From: Eledone cirrhosa
Lineage: Eukaryota
Assembly: GCA_964016885.1 (NCBI GenBank)
Contig: CAXHJY010001643.1
Coordinates: forward strand, 1,137-65,136
DNA: 64,000 nucleotides
Reading direction: 5' to 3'
Shown: piece by piece, positions 462-64,000 of the stretch
How the letters are laid out: each line of letters begins with the position of its first letter
Numbering within the stretch: the stretch's first letter is position 1
Program-made: the position numbers and the translations under genes
Notes under the pieces: model-generated
Databases searched by the model: none
What the model saw: only the letters and a program-made list of their open reading frames with translations
What the model was told of the DNA's origin: nothing

Positions 462-2962
462 CATCTATCTATCTATCTATCTATCTATGGGGTCGATTTA
501 ATCCACTTTACCCCGAAAAAAAAAAAAAATATTGGTCTTGTGCTTAAATCAGAAACGAATATTTAGAATCTTAGTAAAGTTGCTGGAATCGAATTTTGAT
601 CAAGAAACATCTTATGAGTTGTCTAAGGACGCTACAAAATGATGAATTGGCCTTAACATTATTTTTATATTAAAATGAAAATATGAATTTTATGATGAAT
701 TATTTATATTAGAATTTACTGTCATGTATCTATTATAAAGCAAAGATGGCAAATCACGTGTAATATCGATTCAAGGCATTCATAAATGTTTTATATTAAC
801 GTGAGAGCGGCAGAGACCAGATACTAAAAAGTATCGATGATTATGGAAATACATATGGCATACGGTTTAACAAATAGAGTTTCATAAGACCTATGTTGTG
901 CTATAGTTTGTTAACCTCAGGTCAGGCCCATGTTTGTAATCGTTCCAACCAGGAACAATCCATATCTTTTTATATACAGGGTGACTAAATATATACTAGC
1001 CTTATTTTTATATGTGATCCCTATTTGTTTCCATATTTTCCCTTAGTTCAGTGATGATCCTGGGTTTGTTGATATATACCGTATGCTTCAGATAGCCCCC
1101 AAGAAAGAAATCAGTGTGTCTGTATTGTCCATTGTAGACATATATATTTTAGATGGTTGTTTATAATTTCAGAGAGATTTAGTTGCGACTCCTATTGTGT
1201 CGAGTGGCCGTTTAAAGGCTTCTTTCCTAGCTCTTTAATAGAAATACAATTTTAAATATCTCGCCTAGACAAACATATAACTAATATAAAATAATAACTA
1301 AAAGCCAATAAACTAAACATCCGAATTAAAGAGGACATTGATTCAATTACCAAAGTAAAAGTTTATAATTTTTACCCGTAACTGTATTATTGAAATCTCA
1401 TGTCTCCTCGCTAAGATGTTAACGCCTTATAGAATCCTGTTTATGTCCTGACGTTAATGTCAACAGTACAATAAAAGGGTATGTTATGTCTTTACACATT
1501 GGCTTGGTAGATAGGGAATAAGCCCTGTAGTCACTAATTAAAATGAAAATGAATTACAGATATTAAATGAAATATATTATTTCTCAGACAGTTTCCCAAT
1601 TACACAAAGTTTAACTACATTTAAATCAGGATGATATCACAACTAGATTGAACATACCCATAATACATACACGAATCAATGAAGTCATTCACACTTGTTA
1701 CCTCGACGTGTTAGAAATAGCATATAACTCTCTCACTCTCAAAATAGACCCTACACGCAATCATAATAGAACGTCATATATATATATATATATATGGCTA
1801 TCAAATTTAAGCTCTATCACCTATAACGTTTTAGAATTTAGACAAAAAAGGCTTACATACACACAATATATTTCCTGTCTAGGTGACGGTGCTACAATAA
1901 ATGTTTCGCGTTTCAATGACAAGTTTCTGGGTTCCAAACCTACATTCTCCGTCCCTATAAATTGTCATTTCTCCAAAGCCACTCTTACATTTAATCAGTA
2001 TGTCATTTGTACATATATGTAATTATATCTTAGAAATAAATAATTAAAATATCGTTTCTATCTTTTCAACTTAAACTATAGGGCCTCTCGTATGCAAATA
2101 TTAATTCATCAAAATAATGTCTATTGTCTAGGATGTGTACGGCGTATTTTCCATTTTCAGTGAATATTCTCACGTAAATGTTTCTGTATAAGGGTTTCCA
2201 TATACATCGAATTACTTATTTCTCTTATGTTCCTAACGCTTTTCATTAAGCATATAAACATTCCATCTCTCTGAAATATATAACTATCTATCTCTGTAAG
2301 TTATCATTATATTTATAATAGCAATTGTTAACAGACTCCATAGGGCACCAGGCGGCAAAGCACTTTGATGTATTTGGACACCTCTGTTTACATTCTGGGT
2401 TCAAATTACTGCGACGTTGACCACACTGTTTGAACCTCCAGGATCGATAAAATAATTGCATAGATATCAGTTTAGTAACAATGGTTGATTTAATCAATAA
2501 TCGACCATTGGTAAAATATGTAAATTTGAATTTATCTTAGAAACAATTTATAATAATTTTGTTCATATGAATAGGTGTGGAAATTTTAGAAACGGTCTAG
2601 TGTCGGATTAAAATAAACCATGGTATTTAGTAACAACCCCTTATGTCATTACTTCTAATAATGATTTCTGATTAAGGCACAAGGCCAACAATTTATGAGA
2701 AGGGGAAATATCAACCCCAGCACGTGATTGGTTCTTTATTTTATCGACCCCGAAAGGATGAAAGGCAAAGTAGACCATGTGGAGTATTTACTTCTAGTAA
2801 TGTTGGTTTCCACATCAACTTTCATCTTTTCTCCATAGCTTGTCTGTTTATCACTTCTATACAAATTTATCAGAAAAAGGAAATCACTGTTTCGTTTTTG
2901 CTTTTGTAATAGATACAAAATATCAGAGCCTCTATATTCTTTATCAGCTCGCCCCGAATTTG

Positions 2963-3715
2963 CAGGTATAAATATAGTCTAGATAGATGAGAAATAAAAC
3001 GAGGATGTAGTTTATGGAACACCCAAATGATTTAGAAGTCGACCTCAAGTAGGAGCAATAACATTAAGAAAGACATGAACGACACCACATGATTTTGTAT
3101 TGAACATTTTGAAAGTAGGTTTATAAGTATGAATTTTCATAGGATATTCGTAGTTGTCTCTGTGGGCTAGCGGTAGGTACTAGAGTCGGTGGAGATCCTG
3201 GTCTTGGGTTCAATCCTGGTCAAGAAGTGCATGTAACTTTTTCAGTTTTTATTTTACAACCAATAGAAAAAAAAACTGAAAAGGTTTACCGGGAACCCTT
3301 CTCCCGCCCAGGATAGAACTTCAAACCCGGATTACCACCATCTATGACTCCTCCAACTCAGCCACTGAGACAGATACGAGAGTAAAATGAAAATTGATAA
3401 TTATAAACCTACTTTCAAAATCAAAGTTAAAAAGATGTGGTGTCGTTCATGGCTTTCCTAGAGCTATTAGTAATATTTAGAGTCGACTTCTGGTCATTAG
3501 TGAAAGTCTCTGGATTTCGCAAAATACATAATATATCTTATTGGAGAAGGTAAGATATTTTTCCGCAAAAATTTGATTGCATTGTTTTGTTTCCACTTAT
3601 GTATTTTTCGAAAATGTTATTTATTCATTATAAAAATTAAATGATAGCATTCTATATGTAGGTGGGCCCCCTTCATCTCCTGGCAACCAATATTTTTAGA
3701 CCGAGTCCGCCACTG
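2963..3715. mobile_element. Non-autonomous DNA element with hAT-like end and internal diverged inverted arms
   Basis: Ends TCCGCCACTG (reverse complement CAGTGGCGGA). Left part recurs at 63668-64000, right part at 45141-45530. Confidence 0.55.
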
Positions 3716-6040: not shown

Positions 6041-6217
6041 GAGTCCCGGCTTCAATCGGGGGTAAACACAGTAGGTAAGGTACTTAAGACATTAGTAGAG
6101 TGTAAACATCATGTTTAATTTAGAAATTGCTTCTACAGGACTAGAACTATTTCATTCTTGATGATTTCTTTTGAATGAAACAGTTCTAGTCATGTAGAAG
6201 CCATTTCTATATTAAAC
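6041..6217. mobile_element. Penelope-like element fragment, family B (hairpin 6113-6217)
   Basis: Arms TAGAAATTGCTTCTACAGGACTAGAACTATTTCATTC and GAATGAAACAGTTCTAGTCATGTAGAAGCCATTTCTA; loop retains TTGATGA; homologous to 28053-28188. Confidence 0.65.
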
Positions 6218-7797
6218 TTGATACATATATATATATATAAGGGAAATCTTATATAAACGTCTGTATGAGTGAGACTTTATGTTTACCGGTGTAAATATGG
6301 ATTGATAAAATAAGTCCCAGTTGAAATTATATACCGGGTTTTATATGCAATTACTGACAACCTTGAAGAGGATGTTACAGCTTTGTAAGAAGAACAAACA
6401 AAATACTATAAGAATAGAGTGCAGTCACTGGAAAATAAAGTCGTTTTAGTTTATAAATGAAATAACATTGAATTTATTCTCGGTTATTATACACTTAAGG
6501 TAGAGAATAAAACAAATATTATTTACACTTAACCCCATGAGGAGGTGGTCATATCAGATTCGTTTATGCTTAATGAAAACAAATTACTATGATGTTTTAA
6601 GAATCTCTAAAAACAACACTATGACTGTACAACATTGATGTCTTTACTTAAGGTTATTGCGAATTTCCATAAAGATATGTCCACTAGTAAAAACACATAT
6701 ATTAAACATTTGAATTAACAATTCTAGATTTAGATTGCTTTTGTTAATTGATTTTTGTGTGTGTGTTTGATAAATCATTAAATGATGTAAGAGGTAATGA
6801 TTAAATTTAACCAAGAGCGGGGTAAGAGAAAGGCTTTTAATTTATTAAAACTACAATGTCGGCAATACAGTAGTGGCAGTCAGTTTAAACTTGTGAATTT
6901 ATTTAGTACTAGAATTTTTTTCCATACGCTGACGGGTATGTATATGTGTGTGTGTGTGTGTATATGTGTGTGTATGTGTATATGCATACATTTATATATA
7001 TGAGTATATAAATATAAACGCACAAACAGACACACTTACAAAAATACACACTCACAGACATACATCCACACAAACACATAGATGTATTCACACAAACACA
7101 TACATTTACACAAACACACACATATAACCATACACACATACAGCGTAGTCTTTTCACCATCCCCTTCCTTCCTTTTACACACACATATATTCACTCAGGC
7201 AGCAGACGTAAAAAGAGAGGAGTAGTATGAGGTAGTCAAACTACTCCTTTCTCCTTACATGTTGTGACAGAATCGCAGAAATTTGTATTTAAATAAGACC
7301 CTATTCTAGATCAACAGTAAATAATGAAGAACTATAAAAAGTAATGGAAGCAAATGGAATGGACTGACGGGAAGATAGCAAGGTGGAATATAGGTAAAAT
7401 ATACAGCAACTGAAACAGCTTCAGGTAGCACATACACACACATATATACATATATACACAAATATACATATATACACATACACTCATACATATACACCTA
7501 TACACATCCACATATACATATATATATACATATATACACAAATATATATATACACATACACACACATACACATATATACATATACACATACACTGACGTG
7601 CACACATACAAACTTATACACATATACAAATATACATATATACACACATCGATATAGTAAAATAACTGCCACTGAAATCCCAATTCACAACAATAACAAT
7701 AACAAAGATCTATAGGTGTGTATATAGTATAGAGGTAGAATAAGAGAAAATACACACACACACACACACATATATATAAATATGTGTGTATGTATAT

Positions 7798-18162: not shown

Positions 18163-18438
18163 TCATTTCACTGCTACCTTTTCTTGATTATAGGAGCTTA
18201 CAGACATTTTTGAATTTGCAGCTGAAGTTGGTAATTTAACCTGGTCCAGTATCCACGGGCTGTTTAATATGTCATGTATCTTCAACCGTGACTCGGGTTC
18301 TGGATATAAAATCCCCTTTATGAGATTTTTGCAAGCACGCGATATATTCCTTTTTTTTCTGAAATTAAACCTCTGGTGCAACTGGTCAGCTATGGCTTTC
18401 TTAATATTGCTGTCATCAAATGGCATTGCGGCACATAT
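18163..18438 (-). CDS. TSSK: TSSK-family kinase, exon 4 (terminal)
   Basis: TTCTTCAG|ATA acceptor. Translates [49 protein letters not shown] (kinase subdomains X-XI; MPFDDSNI is TSSK-typical). Spliced total 306 aa. Confidence 0.93.
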
Positions 18439-19324
18439 CTGAAGAATAAAAATACCTCTAGATAAAATGCCACCTAAAATGTTTGACAAATATACTGAAA
18501 ATATATACCAAATGATGTAAAACTAGTTGATTTTCGTTTAAATCGTGATTTTTTTTGTCAACTAACCAGACTGGATTCCAAAAGTGTCAGGAACGCTGGG
18601 GTCGGTGTATTGCTGCTCAAGGTGACAATTTCGAAGGAAATGATGTTAAGACCAAGGAAAATATATATTCCACGAATTTCTGATACTATCTCGTATATTT
18701 AACAAAAATTATATAGTCTATTCTACAATAAAACCTACTTCATATTATGTAATATGAATGTATATATTAGAGAAAAAGTATTCACTATTCATAGTTAAGT
18801 TTAGTACTTCGTCTGAACGACTCTAAAGAAGTGTGTTATTTACGCAGCAACAGATAGCTTGGAGCAATTGCTCTCAGAATATTGGAACAGAAAATAACCT
18901 CCTGTTCGTATTTTGTCTTTGTACAATTAAACAAATCAGGGCCTCTAGGTTTCATAAGAGAGAACTGTGAGACAAATCACAACTCCTTGGTTATATTTAA
19001 AATGGAGGCTTCTGATAAACGTTAGAACAGAGTAGTCATGCTAAATGACCCAAAACTAAGAGAGGTGCTAAATTAGTTGACAGATTATTTCTACAATCAT
19101 TTACGAACATCCTCCACTGAAATATTGCTCTTGGAAATGTTCCTCTTGTTTAACAAATGTAATTAAATATATAATAGTGGTCGTTAATGTCCCCCCCCCC
19201 CCCCAACCAAAAAAGGGACAACATAATTGTGAATAGGTTTCTACCAGAAACAAACTATTCAAGACCTTACCAGTTTCACAAGTTTCAGTATTTTCAAGTG
19301 TTAAGAGAGAAGGAAAGATATGTG

Positions 19325-19732
19325 GCTATGCGAGTACTGACATACGGCGTTTCTTGAGCAATTTAAATCTGGCAAAGCCCATCCCTCTCCAGGCCTGAGT
19401 ACAGCAGATTTCTTCCAGAGAAGGATAGGAAGTGAGAGAGAGGAAATGAGAAAGAGTTATAGAAGAAGAATTGACCCCAGTACTAGGCTGGTACTGTATA
19501 TATATATATATATATATATATATGGAGGGACAGGGTGAGAGAGGGGAAATGAGAAAGAGATATACAGGAAGAATCGACTCCAGTACTAGACTGGCACTTT
19601 TTTTTATCGACCTCGAAAGGATGAAAGGCAAAGTTGACCTCGGTGGGATTTGAACTCAGAGAGTAGAGAGCCGGAATGAATACCACAAAGTATTCTATCT
19701 GATGTTCTAACGACTCTGACAATTCGCCGCCT
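19325..19732 (-). mobile_element. SINE subfamily with extended 3' region, TSSK intron 3
   Basis: Core reverse complement at about 19590-19660; extension GACATACGGCGTTTCTTG..TGAGTACAGCA shared with 22705-22980. Confidence 0.7.
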
Positions 19733-19796
19733 ACACATACTACTTATGTTATATACAATTGATAGACTTATTAATTTTTGGTAACGAAAACATTAC

Positions 19797-20004
19797 CATA
19801 TTGTAAAGAATCACGCCTAGGGCCCATAGATCATGTAGAACAGGGTTGTACGGGATTCCTTGTAATATCTCTGGAGGTGCATATGCAGCACTGCCACAGA
19901 ACGTCTTCAACAAATCGTTTGTTTGGAAGTACCTGGCAAAGCCAAAATCAGTCAGTTTAATGTTGTTTTCACCATCTAACATAATGTTTTCACATTTCAG
20001 GTCC
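19797..20004 (-). CDS. TSSK: TSSK-family kinase, exon 3
   Basis: Pyrimidine tract then CAG|G, completing the Arg of HRD. Translates [52 protein letters not shown], then GTAATG donor; 208 nt, phases match neighbours. Confidence 0.95.
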
Positions 20005-21180
20005 CTGTTGGAAAAGAAAAAGAAAATCAGCAAACAAAGACAGTCACACGAAAGCGCATGCGCATGCACGCGAGTGCACATACACACACGTCTCCACACG
20101 AAAGTGGAGACACGCACCATACACGTACACATAAGCTAGCGCACATACAAACATACACATAAATCAACACGTACACACACACACACATGAACGAAAACAT
20201 AGTCACACATGCACACATAAATCAACAGACACACACACAACCCTCCCCCCATACAAACCTAACCAACACATAATCACACACAGTGACACCCTCATCCAAA
20301 CAAACACATACACATGTAAACCAAAACACACACACACACATGTAAACAGACACAGACACCTTCATCAAAACACACACATACACACACGTAAAGCAACACA
20401 CACACACACAGACACATTCATCGAAACACACACTTAAAGAGTACACAAACTGGTTTTCCCTGGCGATCTTCTTCTGTTTCATTCAACAATGACCAATCTA
20501 CTTCTGTCTTTGTTCCGTCCTTATCCAAGGCAAGCTACGTAGTTTCACATAAAATAATGTAGAATATGTTTAGATTCTCAAACTGTGAAATACACGTCTT
20601 TCTCAATGCACATCCAACATGTTTAATGTTACTTTAAGCTAGTTTTAGGATTCACAAGAGTAGGCTTTAGTTTACTTGGTCTTGTCAAATCTCATCAAAT
20701 CAGAATTAAAACTTCTTAAAAATAAATGCTATTAGTTGAGAAAAATATCTGCTTTTGCAAATCTTCGTATATTACTTGGTTGGTCGGACAATGAGATTCA
20801 AGGGAAAATCCTAGGATTTATCTCTTCTGTCTGTGTTTCAGTTATTACCATCGCTGACGAGGTTGGAGTCGACGTATGTATTTGATGGAAGCAACACGGA
20901 GTTTTATGATTTTGAAGCCAACTTCTGAAAAGCTAATCTCTACCTACACCTGCTCCCCCCCACACACATACAGTGCATTACTGGTACTTCATTTTATCAA
21001 CCCAGTAAAGATGAAAGGCAAAGCTAACCTCGACGGGATTTAAACGCAGAACGTAAAGGGCCGTAACTCCATGCTGCAAATAATAATAATAATAATAGCA
21101 GCTGCGCTATAGCAGATATCCATCGAATTATAAGAAGCAGCCAATATATATATATATATTTATATATATATGTGTGTGTG

Positions 21181-21243
<63 letters not shown>

Positions 21244-22704
21244 ATGTGTGTGTGTGTGTGTCGATCATACGCATCAGCAAGTTATAATGCAAGTTAGAAT
21301 CAATCTAAATATTTTAAGGAGTGTTTATTATTGGAGTCGCCCGAAGAACCAGTCTTTTGGATAAGGTACACCTAACTCTGCACGGTATCTTCCAGCATAT
21401 TATTTGTAACGGGATTTACCTATCACACATCCTTCACCATATGCACTTTTTTCCTTTAGACAATTTGCGGTTTAGCCTTCAAAACGATACATATTTGACA
21501 AGGTAAAATTTGACATGTGCTTCAAACGAGTTTGCAAAAGATATACGAAATTTTAAAAGAAAACCTACAGGCTTCACTCAAAATCATGTTCTCATTTTCC
21601 TTAGCTTCTAACGGTACATAAAGAAGTTACCATGAAAATAAATCGCCAGTGAGGCAATAACAAGCAAAAGAATAACTATAGACTAAGAAAGGTCCTGCTC
21701 CAGGATAAGATTAAGCTTGATGAGAAGTGTGTAGAGACCATTGTTAATACGATAGTGAAGTCATTGTGCTTCCACTGGAATAGACGTAATAAAAATGTTG
21801 CCTGACACAACAGCTCAGTCTACCAGAGTGAGGAAGGATTACGATTTACTTCATGCTTGGCAGAAATGCTCAGCAGGCGTGACCAAGAATCAGTATGATA
21901 AGAACAAGAAAAGATTTTCTATGCACTTTCTGGGGACCATTGCATGGTGAAGGTTGTTCAGGAAATCCTCTACAAACATGGAAAACACAAAACACAAGCA
22001 TATTCCTCAGTAATCGCCACCGGCTACACTATTTCCAATAGCTGATGATGATGATTAAAAACCAGACATTTTAGAAAAATCCTATTGTTCAGCACTTGCT
22101 AGAAAAGTTCTGTTGTTTACACAGACAATGACGAATATAAACGCAACTACACACCTAGAAATAAAATATATCTGAAAAGACACTACTTATCCAGGTTGAT
22201 CATTCTGAGCTATTGCCCATAGAAAAAATATATGAAATGACCTGGTTTTTCATGATCCATATTACTTCTATATACATTCATACCTTTTATTCAGCGACAA
22301 CTAAAGTAAAAGCAACTTAAACGGATAAACTGTCTGATACAGCTTAGATAACTTACATTTCATTTCTACTTTCTTACGATTGCGAATATCACCAGAAAAT
22401 AGACATATTAACAATATTGATTTAGGTGAACCTTCATTAATTGTATTCTTAAAACCATTTATTGCATGAATTAAAAAAATGATAAAACGCATTTCTGTTC
22501 TATTTCAAGGAGCCAAGAAGTTTTCAATAGGAATATTCAACACAGTATTAATCATGTAAGTTATGTAGCATCATTCGTCATGCGCTTACGTCAACTATAT
22601 ATTAGAAAAGTCCTCACAGTATTTTGTACCAGAAACTTAGACAATTCTCCACCACAGTATGCTATGGTATAGTCCCGTAACTCATGATAGAGTCGTATGG
22701 GCAC

Positions 22705-22980
22705 CCTATTGACATATGGCGTTTCTTGGGCATTTTAAGACTGGCGGAGCCCATCGCTCTCTAGTCCTGAGTACAGCATATTTCTTCCAGAGAAATATAG
22801 AATGTGAGAGGAAATGAGAAAGAGCTATAGAGGACGAACCGACCCCAGTACCAGACTGGTTCTTTTTTAATCGACCTAAAAAGGATGAAAGGTAAAGTTG
22901 ACCTCGGTGGGATTTGAACTCAGAGAGCAGAGAGTCGGAACGAAGACCATAAAGCATTCTATCTGACGTTCTAACGAATT
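22705..22980 (-). mobile_element. SINE subfamily with extended 3' region, TSSK intron 2
   Basis: Colinear with 19325-19732. Confidence 0.7.
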
Positions 22981-23284
22981 GATAATCCAAGTGTACAATC
23001 GGAATTGATGGAGATGCCCTATAGAAAAAGGCTTTCAAATTATAACAATTCTATTTCGGTTTAAGCATTTAATTTTCCAAATATATACTTGTGTGGTTTG
23101 AGTAAGATTCAACTGCTTTATCCAGTAGATCGAATGGACGTATAGAAGCTTCTGTTGGTTTAGTCCAAACCACATGTCGCTACATCTCATAATGGAAATC
23201 ATTACAATGGGTTTATTTTACATTACAGAAATCTAAAATTATAATGTCAAATAGTTTCTATTTCAAGACACTCTACATCTCACT

Positions 23285-23545
23285 ACACATGTGATATCTC
23301 CACACTATCTTTTCTATCTCTTTCATGGTGTCTGCCTCCCCGAATTGGCTGCATTTCTACGACATTTCTTCGCAGTAACTCATGTTTATTTCCTTCTCTC
23401 GTTATACACATTGTATCTTGTCCACTCGGCACTAACCATTTCCTCCAACCTATTCTTCCTAAACTGTGACACATCTGCAACTGAGACCCTCACCCTATTT
23501 TCATCCCACGGTCAATGTTTAACATGAACAGCAACCCTATCAACC
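23285..23545 (+). mobile_element. Degenerate CR1/Jockey-group LINE 3' ORF fragment in TSSK intron 2
   Basis: LFYLFHGVCLPELAAFL..RTNHF.. resembles the YR..HG.C..EL...RT..F..SF.P..WN.LP C-terminus; frameshifted. Confidence 0.45.
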
Positions 23546-23579
23546 ACTCCAGTATCAATAGCATAATTATAACACTTAC

Positions 23580-23728
23580 CTGTGCACTATGAAGTTTGAA
23601 TGAAGATAATTTACTGCATTAACTATGGGGAGGTACATTTTTCTGGAATTCGCTTCGCTTAAACTGCCTCTCAAGTTGATATACTCCAGCAGTGTGCCAT
23701 GACTCGCAAATTCCATGATGATAAATGT
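23580..23728 (-). CDS. TSSK: TSSK-family kinase, exon 2 (not in ORF track)
   Basis: CAG|ACA acceptor. Translates TFIIMEFASHGTLLEYINLRGSLSEANSRKMYLPIVNAVNYLHSNFIVH-R. Ends AG|GTAAGT; 149 nt, phase 2. Confidence 0.93.
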
Positions 23729-24984
23729 CTGTGATTAGAGTTATGACACATCATTGGGTTTACACAAGCCAGAAAAATTAAACTTATAATAAGATATATG
23801 ACAAGATTATTATTCATCACATGTGCAAATAACACTGACAGACGAATACAATATGGAGGTGTTTATGTAGACGCCCAACTTGGGACAAAAGTCAATGTTT
23901 ACCCTACACTCTTATGAAAGGATACGGTAGTAAATATAGACTTGCGTCTCTTGCATATAGAAACATGTTTCACATTTTACAGTTCCGTAAATATACTTGC
24001 AATTTCCCAGTGAGCCATGTTTTATTGACTGCAGGAAGATTAAATACAAAATTTGCTTCGGTGGAATTTGATCTCAGAACGTGACAACATGAAGTTAAAT
24101 GTTATCTGTCTATGTTCCCATTTCAAGATGGCGATATTATTTGAGTTGTTGATCTTCAGCCTGAGTTTGTCCCTGTCATTAATTAAGCAGAACTATGATA
24201 TAATCTAAGTTGTTTAGAAACAGATCAGTTCTGATTATGTAGAACTATGATATCATTTGAGTTGTCTAGCCTATATATCAGTTCTGATTAAGCCAAATTG
24301 ATTGAATCTATGACTATTGCTTATTTTTAGGAGGGACGTGGCTTAAACTACATACCCATTAAGTGTGTTCTTTAAGCAGTTATGGTATGATATTTTGGAT
24401 ACTATTTCTAATAGGTGGAGTGACAATGTTCAACTATCTTCAGCTCGCCACTGAACCCTGGAAGCAACTTTATTGTACGAAATTACATCGGAACGTTAGA
24501 ATGTGATACTTAGTGAAATAAGATGAGATGAAAGGTTGAATTATCTTGAATCACTGAATGAATTCCACGAGATGATATAAGATAGTTGAGTTGATAGGAT
24601 CTTTAACAGACGTGCTATCTATCACCAACACAATGAAAATTACTAATTCAATATGTAATATAATTTGAAATTATATGGTAATACCTATGGGCACGATAGT
24701 TAATATTTTGGACGAAGGAATATAATTTAGCTAGGTTAACTGTGGGGTTAAATTACGTGTTGTGACATAAATTACAACGAAAGGGAATTCAACATGGTGG
24801 GCTAAATTAAATGAGTTGATGATAGTGTCTTCATACCCTTACCATATGACCTTCATAATGGAAATATCTGATGCAATAATTTAGAATAGCAAATAATCCT
24901 CATACACAAGCACTCTCACACACAGGCATGTGAGTGTGGGGATATATTTTTGCTGCTTTACAGGGGGGAAATGAATGAACTAAC

Positions 24985-25272
24985 CTTTTTCTCAATCGTG
25001 AGTATCTCGTAAACAGCAGCTATATTTGGATGTGTAACCGCTTGGACTATTGCAATTTCTCTTGGTAAAAATCGATCTCTAAACTCAGCCGGAATTTTAT
25101 TCAAATCAATGATTTTGATAGCGACCTTTTTGCGCTCGTTTTCACTGAAGCCCAATTTAACTTTACTGTATGACCCATGACCGATAGTTGGACCAAATTT
25201 ATATCCGCTTATCTCTAGTTGGTTGTCTTCCGAATAGCGCGTTGATTTCTGTGTTTCCGCGTCAACATTCAT
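24985..25272 (-). CDS. TSSK: TSSK-family kinase, exon 1 (96 codons)
   Basis: ATG with an in-frame TGA three codons upstream. Contains Gly-loop GHGSYS, VAIK lysine and the TSSK-typical RFLPREI and HPNI. Ends AAG|GTTAGT (phase 0 donor). Confidence 0.93.
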
Positions 25273-25611
25273 GTTTAGTCATTTTGAGATTCAGTAATGA
25301 TGGTAGCTTTTCTAATTTGGGGGAGTCTTGTTGTTTTTGGTCTAAGGTTTTGATCTTTTTTGAAGAAATATTTCTGTCCCTTTTTCTAGTTATACGATCG
25401 AAAGTTTCGAAACGGTCGAAATTGCAACCAGAAAATCATTTCCCTTCCATATTTTTCAGTGAAACGATCGATAAAATATAAATAAATGAGAACATTTAAT
25501 TTAATAATTGATAGTAAAATGAAATAAAAAAAATTCTTCCTACTTTTAATTTATATTTTATTTTTCTTATTTTTTCTTTACGTATTTCCTCGTGGTTGTA
25601 TAACATTCATT

Positions 25612-27564: not shown

Positions 27565-27890
27565 GGATTGTCAGTATCAGTAGAGGGTCGGACGCCATGC
27601 TTTCCAGCATAGTTACGTCCCTTTACGATCTGAGTTCAAATCCCGCCGAGGTTGACTTTGCCTTTCATCCTTACGGGGTCGATAAAATAAAGTACCAGTA
27701 ATGCACTGGGTAATTGCTGGCCTTGTGCCTAAAGTAGAAACAATTATATTGCATAGATTTAGGGTCTGAGTTCAAATCCAGCCGAGGTTAACTTTGCCTT
27801 TCATCCTTACGGGGTCGATAAAATAAAGTACCAGTAATGTACTGGGACAATTGCTAGCCTTGTACCAAAAGTAGAAACTATTATTATATT
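27565..27890 (+). mobile_element. Abundant SINE with tandemly duplicated 3' part
   Basis: CTGAGTTCAAATCC..GTAGAAAC occurs twice. Confidence 0.8.
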
Positions 27891-28122
27891 GTTTGGATTA
27901 AGGCCCATATGTAAATTTGGCTGAGATTTCTCATACAACATAAACGCACAAACACACATACACACAGATATATACATAAGTGGGCCTTTGTGTGCATATT
28001 TCAATCTAAATATATACATATATGTATTGGTATGTGTATATATATATATATATCCCGTGTTCAATCGGGGGTAACCACAGTAAGAAAGGTACTCAATACA
28101 TAGCAGAGTATAAATATTCAAT

Positions 28123-28188
28123 ATAGAAATGCCTTTCCTGATGATTTCTCCCGAATGAAACAGTTCTAGTCCTGTAGCAGCCATTTCT
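28123..28188 (+). ncRNA. Type I hammerhead ribozyme motif
   Basis: CTGATGA 28138-44; stem II TTC/GAA over a U.U pair; GAAA 28157-60; stem III CAG/CTG with loop TTCTAGTC; GUA cleavage triplet (after 28176); stem I AGAAATG/CATTTCT with an imperfect proximal part. Confidence 0.7.
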
Positions 28189-30895: not shown

Positions 30896-31333
30896 TATAT
30901 GTATATGTATATATATATGTGTGTGTGTGTGTATGAATATAAAATATGTATATACATTTGTACATATATATATATATAAACATATATGTCTATATTTATG
31001 TATCTATATATATGTATATATGTGTGTCTGTGTGTGTGTGTGTATAAGTGTGTATATACATGTGGCTGTTATAGTGTGAGAGATATAATATGGTGATAAA
31101 GATAAAGGAAAGAGAGAAGTTGTGATCTAGAAGGATATCAAAGTCAAATAAAAAACAGAACGACATACATGAGAGTGGAATAGCATTGAGTGGCAGAGAG
31201 AAAGATGGTCGACCAGGTGGACATACAAATGGATTAATAGGTAATTAGAATTGCATGCATACGTATTTATATATATACAGATACAATATATATATATAAT
31301 AATAAATTTGAAGACTAAAATCCAAAGAGGGTT

Positions 31334-31384
31334 AGTTTCAGCAGATCCTGTTAAGGGTGAAAGCAGCGATTCTTTGCTTAAACT
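31334..31384 (+). ncRNA. Second copy of the variant hammerhead (core CAGCAGA, probably inactive)
   Basis: AGTTT-CAGCAGA-TCCTGTTAAGGGT-GAAA-GCA..TGC-TT-AAACT; same family as 56556-56631. Confidence 0.5.
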
Positions 31385-31395
31385 TTAATCTGTTA

Positions 31396-31424
<29 letters not shown>

Positions 31425-31427
<3 letters not shown>

Positions 31428-31618
31428 GGAACAAGTAAGACCCCGACGGCTGAGCTCAAGCCGTTTCAACGGCTAATTCTGTACAGAATTAGCCGTCGAA
31501 ACGGCTTGAGCTCAGTCGTCGGGGTCTTACTTGTTCCTATTACCCACTCTACTACCCTAAGTATTGAGTACTTTGGTGCGTTATGGTCCACCTGGTTCCT
31601 TACCACATTTCCTTCGTT
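31425..31618 (+). mobile_element. Penelope-like element fragment: 116-bp palindrome plus tail (family A)
   Basis: Palindrome 31425-31540 centred on GTAC, 2 mismatches. Includes the hammerhead 3' half GAAACGGC-TTGAGCTCA-GYCGTC. Tail GAGTACTTTGGTGCGTTATGGTCCACCTGGTTCCTTACCAC is shared with 36379-36456. Confidence 0.7.
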
Positions 31619-31946
31619 ATATATATATATATATTTATATATTCGAGTGATCAGTGGCCTTTAGACTCACCTGATCAAAGAAACAATTGTTAATACTGTA
31701 AATAAAACCCTTTCTGTACAGACGACCATGTTATTCTTCACTCTTTCACTACTGTCACTCCAAGAATAACCTACATGGGAATTCTCGCAAACTCACCACC
31801 GAACTAAGGAAACCTCTTGTTGAGTCAAACAACGCCGTACGTCAAAACTATCCATAATACAGAGTACCCACAACCTCTAACTGGATTACCTAAAACGATA
31901 ACTTGTTAGTTATCCAATATATATATACACACACATGCAGTATATA

Positions 31947-31982
<36 letters not shown>

Positions 31983-32168
31983 TATATATATACATACAGT
32001 ATTTTGATAATTTGACTGGTATAAGCAGTATTTAAAATCGAGTGTCACAACAACATTGCAGATAGTAATTTTAAGACGGATTCAACCACAAAGTCGCAAT
32101 GAAACACATGTTAATACTTGGAATAAATCCTACTGTATAGCTTATCCTCGTTATTCTTCATTGTTTCG

Positions 32169-32205
<37 letters not shown>

Positions 32206-32263
32206 TATATATATATGTCGATTCAATTTGGATTGCCTCGGAAACATAACAGAAATGTAACAA

Positions 32264-32337
32264 GCTGTCTGATGATGTCACGACACTCGCACACAGAACA
32301 GTGTGGCCAGTGTCGCCATTGAAATATATATCACAGC
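32264..32337 (+). ncRNA. Type I hammerhead ribozyme motif
   Basis: Stem I GCTGT/ACAGC; CTGATGA 32269-75; long stem II (CGACACT/AGTGTCG, CACAC/GTGTG; base imperfect); GAAA 32321-24; palindromic TATATA minimal stem III; AUC triplet (after 32332). Confidence 0.8.
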
Positions 32338-32786
32338 ATTATTATTAAAGGACTTGAACATCTGAAACTACTTCGCTTTTCCTTATTCGATATTTACTCC
32401 GTCACTCCTATGTGGAAAAAGTACGTTGAGTGCTTGAATTGAATTGCATCAATGTTTACCCTAATATATATATATATATATTAGATACAAAGCGTAGCGT
32501 AGAATTTGAAATGGTAAAATAGTGCTTCCGCCGTATATTTGACTAAGTAAATTATCCTATTAGTTGGAGTTATAAAACCCCATAGAATATGAAAAATGGG
32601 ATGGCCATTGACGTACAAGAGACACGAACCCACATATATGTATATGTGCGTGCGTGTATATATATATATATGATTCCAGTTCCTCAGAGAAATAACAACG
32701 CAACCAGGAGCTGGACATATCGGAGTATTGACGGAGTAAAACACACTTCAACAACATGTGTACCTGTCTTTCCCACACCAATTCGG

Positions 32787-32841
32787 ACTGCCTGAAGAGG
32801 TCACAGCCAATGATGGCTGTCACCGAAATATATATAGCAGT
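32787..32841 (+). ncRNA. Type I hammerhead ribozyme motif
   Basis: Stem I ACTGC/GCAGT; CTGAAGA 32792-98; stem II GGT-C-ACAGCCA/TGGCTGT-C-ACC; GAAA 32825-28; TATATA minimal stem III; AUA triplet (after 32836). Confidence 0.88.
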
Positions 32842-33022
32842 ATATCTATAATTTATAATAAACGAAGCCAAATTTTACCTATTTGACTTAATTATTTTAT
32901 ATATATATATATTGACTGTTGGTTAATCAATGATAAACATTGATTATCAGCTGAATTAATTATACAAGTATAAAATATACTGAAAGGAAAACCATCTCAA
33001 ACTAAACACTGTTTTTTTTTAC

Positions 33023-33060
<38 letters not shown>

Positions 33061-33169
33061 AATCGGTTATCCATCCATAAGTATATATATATAGGACTAG
33101 AACTGTTTCATTCCAATGAAACCAACAAGTCGCTTAGAAAGTATTTCTATATTGATTATATATATCCTG

Positions 33170-33292
33170 TTGCTTAAACTTTAATCTGTTATTTTATTAA
33201 ATATTTGCTCTACGGTTCTTATATATTTGATATATATTTATCCCTATCGAGCACTCTTTGGATTTTAGTCTTCAAATTTATTATTATTACTA
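33170..33292 (+). mobile_element. Tail of the variant-hammerhead family (reverse complement of 56451-56575)
   Basis: TTGCTTAAACTTTAATCTGTTATT..GAGCACTCTTTGGATTTTAGTCTTCAAATTTATTATTATTACTA; related pieces at 31298-31400 and 49521-49578. Confidence 0.6.
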
Positions 33293-33827
33293 TATATATA
33301 TATATATATTCCATTATTTAAACATAGAGCAATCCATCTCTCTATCTCTTCATATTCTATATCAATATACATAAGTGTGTGTGTGTGTGTGTGTGTGCGT
33401 GTGCGTGCGTGTGTGTGTGTGTGTGTGTGTGTTTGCCTGTTCGTGCGTTTCATTTAATAAACGTGATTGATGATACACGACCTACCACCTGTAGAGCTTT
33501 GATCTGTTACTTCCGCCATCAGGTAGGATGTTATTAAGGTGTTATATTGTAGAATGAATGGAGTGAGGTGGGGGTGTCAAGAAGAGGAGGAGAATAAGGA
33601 GGAAGAAGGGGATTAGAAATAGGGAAGAGTATGAGGGTAATGATGGATATTCCCAATGGCAGTCAGCCTGCAAATTTTATAACATGATAATGTATCACAC
33701 ATAATTTGGGATGAAATGTAATACAATCGTTTATACACCATATATAATCTCAGGCACACACGCAGCCCCTCATATATATATATACATACGCGCGTACACA
33801 GACGCACACACACATACACACACACAC

Positions 33828-33953
<126 letters not shown>

Positions 33954-34581
33954 GTCTGTGTGTGTGTGTGTGTGCATGTACGCTTGAGTAAGTGTGTGTT
34001 TATGTGTGAATCTTTGTAGTACCGACTTCATGACAATGGTGTATTTTTAATAGGTCACATTCAATTTTCCTTTATTTACGGATCTTAGATTTTATTGTAC
34101 ATATCCAATATCATAACTTGATTTAATGTGAAATAAAGTATTAAATCTTTTATAGAGTCCAGTCTACTATAATAATTGTATTAAATTGTACAAGATTCAA
34201 AGAAGAGATATTTTATATTGTTGATTTATTTCAGACACACCTACACATACATACACATACACTCAGACACACACACACACATGTAAACGTCTAAGTGGAT
34301 CTCCGTCAGTTTAATGATGTATATTCTAGATGATTGGTGATTCACAGTAATGAAGCCATGACAGCAAAACACACTGAGTGAAACGACAGAACATTTTAAC
34401 TACATATATAGTTCAACCTACGGTCTTCCAAATAATATATATATATATATATATATAAGTATTGAAATTTCCGTTGGAAACAGAAAAGGTCATAGAAATG
34501 AAGAGTGCTTTTATTTCGTATTCGCCTCATTCGGGAAACCTCTGGTAATGAGGTAATTATATTGTATTGATATTTTTATAC

Positions 34582-34643
<62 letters not shown>

Positions 34644-34706
34644 AATATTTATATTTATATTTATATAAATATGTATATATACATATATACTTATACATGT
34701 GTATAC

Positions 34707-34765
<59 letters not shown>

Positions 34766-34795
34766 AGAAGAAAAGATGGTTAAAGGAGTTCCATG

Positions 34796-34866
34796 TATTT
34801 TATTATGCGCATTTCAAAAACAAATATCATCATGCAATAATATTTGAGTTTTCATCAGATAAAACA
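34796..34866 (-). ncRNA. Type I hammerhead ribozyme motif (left arm of the large palindrome)
   Basis: Mirror copy: TCATCAG at 34852-58 and TTTC at 34812-15; stem II CAAATATTAT/ATGATATTTG; predicted cut between 34804 and 34803. Confidence 0.78.
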
Positions 34867-34988
34867 GGAAGACATGATATGAAGGTTAAAGACACTTGTG
34901 GATAGTGCAGTTTTAAATCAACATATCATATGTTGATTTAAAACTGCACTATCCACAAGTGTTTTTTAACCTTCATATCATGTCTTCC

Positions 34989-35059
34989 TGTTTTATCTGA
35001 TGAAAACACAAATATTATTGCATGATGAGGTTTGTTTTTGAAATGCGCATAATAAAATA
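34989..35059 (+). ncRNA. Type I hammerhead ribozyme motif (right arm of the large palindrome)
   Basis: Stem I TGTTTTAT/ATAAAATA; CTGATGA 34997-35003; AT-rich stem II; GAAA 35040-43; palindromic ATGCGCAT stem III; AUA triplet (after 35051). Confidence 0.75.
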
Positions 35060-35184
35060 CATGGAACTCTATTAACCATCTTTTCTTCTTATATATTATG
35101 TATACTCCAGTCCTACAAACTGTAGAGTGCTTCTTATCCGATATCTTTTATGTATTTATTGTACTACAATAAAACTCACCTCCT

Positions 35185-35287
<103 letters not shown>

Positions 35288-35298
35288 CATATATATAC

Positions 35299-35330
<32 letters not shown>

Positions 35331-35388
35331 TAATATTTATATTTATATAAATATGTATATATACATATATACTTATACATGTGTATAC

Positions 35389-35441
<53 letters not shown>

Positions 35442-35648
35442 ATATATATATATATATATGCTTATAAAAAACCCCGCATGACCAAGTCTTTAGAATAAGA
35501 GGGCACACAGGACAAAGACATTGGAAAAAAGAACCTAAACACAGACAGACTCTGTAACAGAATATACCTACAATACTTCTGATAAGAAATATATAATTTA
35601 CACACACGCTGAATTGTTTTTCTCCTCCAGGAAGGCTTACTTAGTAAG

Positions 35649-35701
<53 letters not shown>

Positions 35702-36193
35702 CTGTGTTTGTGTAGGCGTCATTGTATGCGTGTGTGTGAGTGCTCCTGTGTGTATGTGGGCATCCTTTTATATATGTGTGTATGTGCTTGTATGAGTATG
35801 TGGGTGTTATCTTGTGTGTGTTTCTGTGTTCATGTGTAAATACGTGCGGATATGCGCGAGGCTATTCGCAAATATTTGTGTTGGAATTTTTTGAAAATAT
35901 TTATTACGTTGTAAAACCAATTGCAATACCGCTTTCTTATCAGTGTGGCATTTTTTTCTATTCTTTGATAAAAGATAACACGATTCTGACCTCTAACGAA
36001 AGCCTCCTTCAAGGAGCCACATTTGACATGCAATAACGTTCTCCTATAAATTCTCTGAAATATTATTCTCATAAATTTCCCGCCGAATGTATTGTATGTT
36101 TATAGAAGCCACACAGCAGAACATAAGGCACCTATTGAGACAAACACGCACACGCAATCCAATGGTATAGCAAATATATATCATACATACAGT

Positions 36194-36242
<49 letters not shown>

Positions 36243-36245
<3 letters not shown>

Positions 36246-36454
36246 GGAAAAGAGTCAGAACCCCGACGGCAGAGCTCAAGCCGTTTTGACAGCTATTTCT
36301 GGAGGCTATTTGAGTCCAGAAATAGCTGTCGAAACGGTTTGAGCTCTGCCGTCGTCGTAGTTCTGACTCTTTTCCTATTATCTACTCTACAACCCAAAGT
36401 ATCGAGTATTCTGGTGCGTTATGGTCCACCTGGTTCCTTACCACACTTCCTTCG

Positions 36455-36456
<2 letters not shown>
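36243..36456 (+). mobile_element. Penelope-like element fragment: hairpin plus tail (family A, copy 2)
   Basis: Inverted repeat 36243-36378 with an 11-nt loop; same tail as 31541-31618; lies between (TA)n tracts. Confidence 0.7.
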
Positions 36457-39079: not shown

Positions 39080-39492
39080 TAACTTGCGTAAATCGGTTGT
39101 TCAATTTATGAATATGAAAAGCTCGGCTGATATCCTGATCATGGGAATATATTTGATATCCTTACATGGGAATACATTTGTTGGCAACATACACACAGCT
39201 TATCAATGCAAACCCTGGATGAATGGACATGCAGGACAGTACCACCGTCATATGTTTATGTCACATAGTATAGGTTTCTGGTGTCTCATGCACAGTTGTA
39301 TCACCCGATATTTTTTCCGATAAGACCAGATACCAAATATATTTGAATATGATTCGTTTTACCCAACCTGAACGGCCTCTAGAGGATTCAACAAAAGTTG
39401 TACCCGTCACACTTAGACTTGTTCCCTCGTGTTCACATCAGTCCATTTATGGTCTACGTGACTGATATAAAATGCGGATGTTGAATTTCCAT
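39080..39492 (-). pseudogene. Extended Tudor-domain-like exon relic
   Basis: NSTSAFYISHV..EAVQVG*..GIWSYRKK..YDGGTVLHVHSSRV / CMLPTNVFPC / RISNIFP. Order matches eTudor FY..VG..WYR..D.G..V..LP..C.I.NI.P; stops and frameshifts present. Confidence 0.5.
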
Positions 39493-39495
39493 ATA

Positions 39496-39690
39496 ATAAT
39501 TGTTTCTACTTTTGGAACAAGGCCAGCAATTACCCCACTGCATTACTAGTACTTTATTTTATCGATCCCGTAAGGATGAAAGGCAAAGTTAACCCCGGCG
39601 GGATTTGAACTCAGAATGATAAGGGCCGTAACTCTAAACGTCAAAGCATGGCGTCCGACTCTCTACCGATACTGCCAATCCATCGCCCCT
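39496..39690 (-). mobile_element. Abundant SINE, full length
   Basis: Reverse complement of head, core and tail. Confidence 0.8.
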
Positions 39691-40177
39691 AATAATGAGA
39701 ATATAACACACAGCTTAAAATAGAAACTGAGATTTTAATAAGAAATACAATACAAGAACCTATAAATGGTAAATCAATGAAGTAAAAGATAAATTCTGAA
39801 AAGATACAATTACTTCTTGGAAAATGAAATTTCTTAGAGTAGCGAAGGTAAAAAATTATTCTGCAGAGAATGAAATGCAATAAATTCCAAGAAAACATTC
39901 TCTATTCAAAATAAGTTAGTAGAAATCCTTTAAATAATAATTGTGGTATAGAAAATGATAGAGAACGAATTGAGTGGAGTCTTTTTTATGGACAGGAGAT
40001 TGAGCAATACATAGGTTGAGAAAATTTAGTGGTGATTTACAACTTATCTATTAGAGGCTTGTTCCAGCGCCTTTCTACGTTGTGAACTCAAAACTCAAAG
40101 AAAATTCGTGTATGTATTTTCAATAAACAACAACAACTGTACGTATATACACGAATACCTGCTCTCACACGCACACG

Positions 40178-63638: not shown

Positions 63639-63667
63639 GGGGTGGAACAGAAATGAAACATGGATTA

Positions 63668-64000
63668 CAGGTATAAATGTAGTCTAGATAGATGAGAAAT
63701 AAAACGAGGATTTAGTTTATGGAACACCCAAATGATTTAGAAGTCGACCTCAAGTAGGAGCAATAACATTAAGAAAGACATGAACGACTCCACAAAACTT
63801 TGTTTGGAAAATTTTGAAAGTAGGTTTATAAGTATGAAATTTCATAAGATTTTCGTAGTTGTCTCTATGGCCTAGCAGTAGGAACTAGAGACGGTGGAGA
63901 TCCTGGTCTTGGGTTCAATCCTGGTCAAGAGGTACATATAAGCTTTTTCAGTTTTTATTTTACAACCAATAGAAAAAAAACTGAAAAGGTTTACTGGGAA
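63668..64000. mobile_element. Second copy of the left half of the 2963-3715 element (runs off the window)
   Basis: Highly similar to 2963-3295. Confidence 0.75.

What the first reader, a model, noticed from the sequence alone, without database searches (positions are those of the whole stretch)
32787..32841. Best-preserved hammerhead uses a TA microsatellite-like sequence as its stem III
Both this motif and 32264-32337 read GAAA-TATATA-T(A/C). The self-complementary stem III is itself a TA run, too short to fold alone but suited to dimer formation. The two motifs are about 520 nt apart on the same strand and share the same stem III, so one transcript could form a heterodimeric ribozyme that excises the intervening ~500 nt, a retrozyme-sized piece (inference).
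Basis: partly seen in the sequence, partly recalled or inferred. Interest (0 to 1): 0.75.

Follow-up and report, generated by a model that had tools for sequence, protein, structure and literature searches.

The report
Hammerhead relics of Penelope-like retroelements
The two self-cutting RNA motifs are real, but they look like leftovers of two separate, very common jumping-gene families of an already described kind, and they fit each other too poorly to cut out the stretch between them as a pair.

Summary
32787-32841 is an intact type I hammerhead and 32264-32337 a decayed relative. Both have the palindromic helix III A-TATATA-T, and the cut sites lie 504 nt apart. No such motif appeared in 300 shuffles.

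The interpretation mostly fails. A palindromic helix III that works only in dimers is the published hallmark of hammerheads in Penelope-like elements (PLEs); Drosophila Penelope already uses an AU-run there. The two motifs sit in separate ~230-250 nt multicopy modules between (TA)n tracts and share only the ribozyme, so the interval is not a retrozyme unit.

A double hammerhead swaps stem I strands. The intact core would meet the other site through a C.A closing mismatch plus A.C; the other core has a broken stem II base. The cis heterodimer costs 11-14 kcal/mol, a modelled homodimer of the intact motif 0.9.

Best reading: two 5'-truncated PLE pLTR relics (or non-autonomous derivatives) in TA microsatellites, probably silent here. 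No PLE ORF was found nearby and no RNA data were available. A new member of a known kind.

The parts
32787..32841 (+). HHR2: intact type I hammerhead of the PLE (dimer) type; helix III palindrome 32828-32835; predicted cut after 32836
32264..32337 (+). HHR1: related hammerhead with a decayed stem II base (no G10.1-C11.1 pair); palindrome 32324-32331; predicted cut after 32332
32671..32897 (+). Module M2 (227 nt) between (TA)n tracts, carrying HHR2; multicopy; read as a 5'-truncated pLTR piece (inference)
32216..32464 (+). Module M1 (249 nt) between (TA)n tracts, carrying HHR1; multicopy; aligns with M2 only over the ribozyme
32481..32656 (.). Spacer between M1 and M2; low-copy (one 177-nt contig without differences; 32535-32605 has some diverged relatives)
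32465..32480 (.). (TA)n tract inside the proposed excised piece; offers 6 competing ATATATAT registers
32657..32670 (.). (TA)n tract at the 5' edge of M2; offers 4 competing ATATATAT registers
34766..35089 (.). Context: inverted repeat (95% identity) holding two copies of a third hammerhead family with a TGCGCA palindrome (cores at 34997 + and 34858 -)

Best explanation
Each motif is the hammerhead of a pseudo-LTR piece from a Penelope-like retroelement family, or from a short non-autonomous derivative. Two related families left separate 5'-truncated copies in neighbouring (TA)n microsatellites. Shown: the core, the stems, compensatory differences between the motifs, multicopy status, and no homology outside the ribozyme. 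Inferred from the literature: in a tandem parent transcript two copies of the SAME family join their palindromic helices III and swap stem I strands into a double hammerhead that cuts the precursor, probably weakly or with protein help. Inferred: these two solitary copies are relics; HHR2 could cut only with a second M2-family copy, and HHR1 is probably dead.
For: The motif is not chance (0 of 300 shuffles). It fits the published PLE consensus: 4-5 bp helix I, long helix II, G10.1-C11.1, palindromic 15.2-16.2, and mostly single dispersed copies (PMC4209133). Between HHR1 and HHR2, 2 of 5 stem I pairs and 4 of the 7 outer stem II pairs differ on both sides and stay paired. 37,439 and 34,483 contigs of runs X1 and X2 (one sample) lie on the 1.9-kb stretch, most under 95% alike; variants inside the two ribozymes stand in 53-80 separate contigs; summed depth over HHR2 is 545,458 against 180 and 1,647 in the spacer bins of X1 (not a copy number). 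Run X5, another organism, also holds pieces of both modules. Both modules lie between (TA)n tracts within 250 nt, against 12% of non-TA bases in the window and 38% locally. A third family sits as an inverted pair, an arrangement described for PLEs (PMC4209133, PMC8557442). A modelled HHR2 homodimer costs 0.9 kcal/mol.
Against: No reverse transcriptase or GIY-YIG remnant was found: 0 Pfam families in six frames of 31050-36300, and none of that kind among 140 of 169 longer open frames of the window. The PLE link therefore rests on ribozyme architecture and context. HHR2 lacks the unpaired base between positions 9 and 10.1 of the min-HHR consensus, though two published rows lack it too. The TA-flanking signal is weak locally (38%). 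The papers read name (TA)n targeting for Naiads, which lack canonical hammerheads, and only hypothesise it for Neptune. X1/X2 may be the window's own source sample. No genome was held, so full-length parents were not seen.
Confidence: 0.78

Rival explanations
1. M2 and/or M1 are solo monomers of a non-LTR retrozyme family that forms short tandem arrays and small circular RNAs elsewhere in the genome. The ribozyme would still work as a same-family dimer.
For: Module sizes of 227 and 249 nt fall in the 170-400 nt range of animal retrozymes (PMC7229834). Monomers are common and retrozymes are argued to derive from pLTRs (10.64898/2026.07.22.740005). A joint going back from 32764 to 32669 in X1 and X2 hints at partial tandems.
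Against: No tandem unit exists at this locus. The ribozyme has a 5-bp stem I and long stem II like PLE variants, not the canonical 6 bp/4 bp form of most retrozymes. The back-joint does not include the ribozyme.
Confidence: 0.13
2. One reading: one transcript folds HHR1 and HHR2 into a heterodimeric double hammerhead, cuts after 32332 and 32836 and frees a 504-nt RNA that may circularise.
For: Same strand, same 8-bp palindrome, 523 nt apart. The fold is nested and so topologically possible. The middle 3 bp of stem I are shared, and the HHR1 5' arm can pair the HHR2 3' arm with two G.U wobbles.
Against: The intact core would pair through C.A (closing pair), G-C, U-A, C-G, A.C. The other core lacks G10.1-C11.1 and pairs with its own TA arm (P 0.55-0.70). 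The probability of the inter-site helix III in 32230-32880 is 0.002, and 10 other ATATATAT registers lie between the two sites. The constrained fold costs 10.8-14.3 kcal/mol. The circle junction keeps the same C.A mismatch. The ends are not direct repeats. Even matched PLE dimers cleave weakly in vitro.
Confidence: 0.04
3. The TA palindrome doubles as a targeting tract: after cleavage the upstream RNA ends in a UA run that anneals to nicked (TA)n DNA to prime reverse transcription, or the core cuts (UA)n transcripts in trans.
For: The modules sit between (TA)n tracts, and the upstream product would end in a UA run.
Against: The modules run on about 60 and 130 nt past the cut sites, so the insertions do not end there. 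The TGCGCA family also lies between TA tracts. In the one PLE tested, reverse transcription starts downstream of the ribozyme at a site not homologous to the target, and cleavage is dispensable (PMC11167929). Of 5,248 ATATATAT-H sites on both strands, only the motif's own site gives 4 or more stem I pairs for either core.
Confidence: 0.03
4. Chance motifs in AT-rich, microsatellite-rich DNA.
For: ATATATAT occurs 2,791 times in the window, and Rfam finds no hammerhead.
Against: 0 of 300 shuffles; compensatory pairs. Of 19 loci matched by core-plus-TATATA patterns in public contigs, 18 have at most 1 WC pair in stem I and are chance, unlike these motifs.
Confidence: 0.02

Closest known systems
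PLE hammerheads with a small palindromic helix III (Cervera and De la Pena 2014, PMC4209133: Drosophila Penelope, Aedes, rotifer, Marsupenaeus)
   Same: Type I topology, short stem I, long stem II, palindromic 15.2-16.2, dimer requirement, dispersed single copies. The D. virilis-type rows of Fig. S3 read A-UAUA-U and the D. willistoni row has a 6-nt palindrome of the same length as here (my reading of PDF text whose GAAA column was displaced).
   Different: The palindrome here is UAUAUA (6 nt); HHR2 has no unpaired base after A9; both motifs keep a C.C mismatch at the fourth position of stem II; no PLE ORF is shown next to these copies.
Small dimeric hammerheads of Penelope-like retrotransposons (Lunse, Weinberg and Breaker, RNA Biol 14:1499)
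   Same: Cleavage as dimers, according to its title and two reviews.
   Different: The paper was not held, so features were not compared.
Metazoan non-LTR retrozymes (PMC7229834; bioRxiv 10.64898/2026.07.22.740005)
   Same: Type I hammerhead in short non-coding repeats; module size; some act as dimers; proposed to derive from pLTRs.
   Different: Retrozymes are tandem repeats with the same hammerhead in each unit. The 504-nt piece is bounded by two different families and has no repeated unit.
Double hammerhead of avocado sunblotch viroid and newt satellite RNA (via PMC6466107, PMC6155905)
   Same: Two unstable helices III merge into one.
   Different: Those join identical tandem copies, so the swapped stem I strands match. 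Here they do not.

Membership tests
PLE-type dimer hammerhead | CUGANGA + GAAA + UH core in type I order | tested here: met
   (both motifs)
PLE-type dimer hammerhead | Short helix I (4-5 bp) and long helix II | tested here: met
   5 bp; 10 bp with a C.C mismatch in HHR2
PLE-type dimer hammerhead | G10.1-C11.1 pair (HHR2) | tested here: met
PLE-type dimer hammerhead | G10.1-C11.1 pair (HHR1, this copy) | tested here: not met
   U.U in the unbulged register; at best G.U if U32276 is bulged. The family's usual letter was not among the 40 of 136 variant rows shown.
PLE-type dimer hammerhead | Palindromic 15.2-16.2, unstable as a monomer | tested here: met
PLE-type dimer hammerhead | Unpaired base between 9 and 10.1 (minimal form) | tested here: not met
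   Absent in HHR2; also absent in the Marsupenaeus and Saccoglossus(2) rows with longer palindromes, so not universal
PLE-type dimer hammerhead | Many dispersed, divergent copies | tested here: met
   (contigs of one sample, plus a second organism); not a genome count
PLE-type dimer hammerhead | Self-cleavage as a dimer | not testable with these tools
   folding models only
Penelope-like element | pLTR adjoining an RT + GIY-YIG ORF in at least some copies | tested here: inconclusive
   None in this window; truncated copies need not carry it; no genome held
Penelope-like element | Partial tandem or inverted 5'-truncated copies | tested here: inconclusive
   Seen for the TGCGCA family; for M2 only a back-joint 32764 to 32669
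Non-LTR retrozyme (the 504-nt piece) | Tandem or direct-repeat units with the same hammerhead | tested here: not met
   M1 and M2 align only over the ribozyme, score 37, z 4.0; no tandem array
Non-LTR retrozyme (the 504-nt piece) | Joined monomer rebuilds a full hammerhead | tested here: not met
   C.A closing mismatch and 3 WC bp only
Non-LTR retrozyme (the 504-nt piece) | Expressed as linear and circular RNA | not testable with these tools
   No RNA run listed; this is no evidence either way

The most novel reading that the evidence does not exclude
Two abundant, related ribozyme families with the same UA palindrome are cross-compatible in one direction: an intact M1-family core can take an M2 cut site through two G.U wobbles. 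Chance neighbours from different families could then cut host or element RNA and, with chaperone help, release chimeric fragments or circles such as the 504-nt piece. That would be a route to new retrozymes from unrelated insertions.
Probability: 0.05. Interest if true: 0.6.

Novelty: new member of a known kind. Interest (0 to 1): 0.17.

Why it matters
As it stands it adds two or three hammerhead families with 6-nt palindromes, and a shared C.C mismatch in stem II, to a catalogue that already spans about 40 animal species. It also gives a simple rule for such scans: dimer partners must match in stem I, not only in helix III. If cross-family cleavage were shown, it would give a testable route by which dense dead repeats create new self-cleaving and circular RNAs.

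Tried and rejected
Rfam: 0 hits at gathering score in the window; 56 matches at E<=10 in 31000-34000, none a hammerhead and all below their gathering scores. The window's own genome is not held. Pfam: 0 families in six frames of 31050-36300; 140 of 169 longer frames gave three kinase exons and weak or low-complexity hits only.

Sequencing runs: no RNA holder listed, which is no evidence on expression. 4 of 15 listed runs were laid. X6 gave 13 contigs and is uninformative. X5 and X6 have no cover of the spacer bins, and no listed piece spans both ribozymes, but contigs are cut at the microsatellites, so this is not counted. None of the 15 joints shown (93 hidden) joins the two cut sites.

Pattern scans: the strict two-family pattern gave 0 hits in metagenomes. 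Looser patterns gave 2 (metagenomes), 12 (viral) and 5 (prokaryote genomes); only L001, 1 of 19, folds as a hammerhead. Upstream of the L001 motif I saw what looked, from recall, like a decayed GIY-YIG end. Three tests did not confirm it: Pfam, a word search with 0 of 32 candidates, and a full phmmer search whose single hit was a spurious tandem-repeat protein. It is not used as evidence.

Trans-cleavage of microsatellite RNA: no second site with 4 or more stem I pairs. Earlier findings by sequence and by place: none.

Literature: hammerhead + octopus + Penelope gave 1 listed paper; cephalopod + hammerhead ribozyme gave 2; double hammerhead/heterodimer/ribozyme gave none on natural cross-family dimers among 15 listed of 1,126. 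The host looks cephalopod-like to me from a recalled SINE resemblance only; a window SINE word was not in the supplement text of PMC13282606, so the taxon is unconfirmed and not relied on.

Full report
Context. The window is AT-rich animal-like DNA. About a third is short tandem repeat (21,092 of 64,000 bases masked), with many dispersed repeats. The only gene found is a kinase with three exons on the minus strand at 18166-25278; its best solved relative is testis-specific kinase 6. The motifs lie about 7 kb upstream of its first kinase exon, on the opposite strand. No whole genome was held.

Observation. HHR2 (32787-32841) has a 5-bp stem I, CTGAAGA, a stem II of 3 bp, a C.C mismatch and 7 bp closed by G10.1-C11.1, GAAA, TATATA and TA. 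HHR1 (32264-32337) has the same layout but a decayed stem II base. The cuts would fall after 32332 and 32836, 504 nt apart. A descriptor written after seeing the motifs finds 3 strict and 4 relaxed hits in the window and none in 300 of 300 block-wise dinucleotide shuffles. The two motifs differ on both sides of 2 of 5 stem I pairs and 4 of the 7 outer stem II pairs while staying paired, which points to selection on the RNA fold. Rfam does not detect them.

The TA run. A15.1 and U16.1 are core positions, so the free part is a 6-nt palindrome. It cannot fold alone (+4.7 kcal/mol) and gives a weak 8-bp duplex (-3.2, against -10.5 kcal/mol for the TGCGCA version). A palindromic helix III that forms only between two copies is the published signature of PLE hammerheads (PMC4209133). 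In its Fig. S3, six Drosophila rows read as A-UAUA-U and D. willistoni has a 6-nt palindrome (my reading of displaced PDF columns). An unrelated metagenome contig, L001, has the same TATATA helix III with proper stems, and a third family in this window uses TGCGCA. So the run is one of several palindromes in use, not a captured microsatellite.

Surroundings. HHR1 and HHR2 lie in modules of 249 and 227 nt between (TA)n tracts. The modules align only over the ribozyme. I laid 4 of 15 listed runs on 31430-33370. X1 and X2, one sample and possibly the window's source, gave 37,439 and 34,483 contigs, most under 95% alike. Variants inside the ribozymes stand in 53-80 contigs. In X1, summed depth is 545,458 over HHR2 and 130,619 over HHR1, against 180 and 1,647 in the two spacer bins; these sums are not copy numbers. 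X5, another organism, holds pieces of both modules. The commonest listed variant in HHR2 (32811) lies in the stem II loop, and one in HHR1 (32316) turns a stem II mismatch into a pair; 96 variant rows were not shown. The interval is thus a mosaic of two repeat ends and a low-copy spacer. No RT or GIY-YIG remnant was found, so PLE origin is inferred from architecture. The inverted pair at 34766-35089 matches arrangements described for truncated PLEs.

The heterodimer. In a double hammerhead the two helices III merge (PMC6466107). By topology (my inference) each core then cuts the other copy's site and pairs its 5' stem I arm with the other copy's 3' arm. Here the intact HHR2 core gets C.A at the closing pair, three WC pairs and A.C. 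The HHR1 core gets U.G, three WC pairs and G.U, but lacks G10.1-C11.1 and tends to pair with its own TA arm. In 32230-32880 the inter-site helix III has probability 0.002, and 10 other ATATATAT registers lie between the sites. Forcing the full fold costs 10.8-14.3 kcal/mol. Linked-dimer models cost 0.9 (HHR2:HHR2), 10.0 (HHR1:HHR1), 9.95 (HHR1:HHR2) and 3.3 (third family) kcal/mol. These are rough nearest-neighbour figures, and much of the heterodimer cost comes from HHR1's own misfolding rather than from the mismatches. A circle of the 504-nt piece would keep the C.A mismatch. At best one cut, after 32836, is structurally open.

Mechanism. Most likely these are relics. In a tandem parent transcript, same-family copies would form a double hammerhead and cut the precursor. 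Published activity is low in vitro, and in the Anolis Poseidon element it needs the element's protein and is dispensable for insertion (PMC11167929). Reverse transcription from a point downstream of the ribozyme, with 5' truncation and insertion into AT-rich targets, would leave just such short modules (inference).

What I saw of each paper. PMC4209133: parts 1-2 of 4 of the text and parts 1-2 of 3 of the supplement. PMC11167929: parts 1-2 of 4. 10.64898/2026.07.22.740005: parts 1-2 of 5, no supplements. PMC8557442: passages and a supplement search. PMC7229834, PMC6765202, PMC6155905: passages. PMC6466107: passages and section 1.3.1. PMC13282606: passages and a supplement search. Lunse et al.: title and citations only. 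Searches for a natural cross-family double hammerhead or for cephalopod hammerheads found nothing specific, within a library that lacks most subscription papers. Two earlier scan notes on other genomes reached the same kind of verdict; they are not independent support.

Verdict. A real and well-spotted motif of a known kind. The heterodimer-excision model is unlikely. Interest 0.17.

Noticed in passing
window 34766-35089: 324-nt inverted repeat (95% identity) between (TA)n tracts with two copies of a third hammerhead family (TGCGCA palindrome; cores 34997 + and 34858 -); stem II is A-U rich and the monomer folds poorly (z 0.69).
   Followed up: partly
window 31428-31617 and 36246-36455: Two copies (79% alike) of an element that starts with a ~110-130 nt near-perfect hairpin, lies between TA tracts and is among the deepest-covered parts of the laid stretch; MITE-like by inference.
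   Followed up: partly
window 31675-31747 and 32096-32167: Two diverged copies of a ~72-nt segment (z 11.7) in TA-bounded modules upstream of HHR1; the first is multicopy. No hammerhead found in them; origin unexplained.
   Followed up: partly
window 18166-25278 (-): Three exons of a TSSK-like Ser/Thr kinase.
   Followed up: partly
window 27583-27889, 39491-39694, 46865-47058, 52001-52186 and about ten more: Dispersed ~165-190 nt SINE-like family; resembles a cephalopod SINE from recall only, unconfirmed.
   Followed up: partly
window 6045-6220, 28054-28185, 44956-45103, 33094-33164: Family of short palindromic elements next to TA tracts.
   Followed up: no
window 2960-3713, 45141-45529, 63665-64000: Longer repeat family with internal inverted segments.
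   Followed up: no
window 33170-33277, 31306-31400, 56466-56618, 49522-49549: Very high-copy short repeat; the copy at 31306-31400 joins pieces of it in opposite orientations.
   Followed up: no
window 32669-32764: Contigs of X1 and X2 go back from 32764 to 32669, suggesting partial tandems of the M2 5' part elsewhere in the genome.
   Followed up: no
L001 889-945 (-): Unrelated hammerhead with a bulged U after A9, a 5-bp stem II and the same TATATA palindrome; the upstream GIY-YIG-like remnant was not confirmed.
   Followed up: yes
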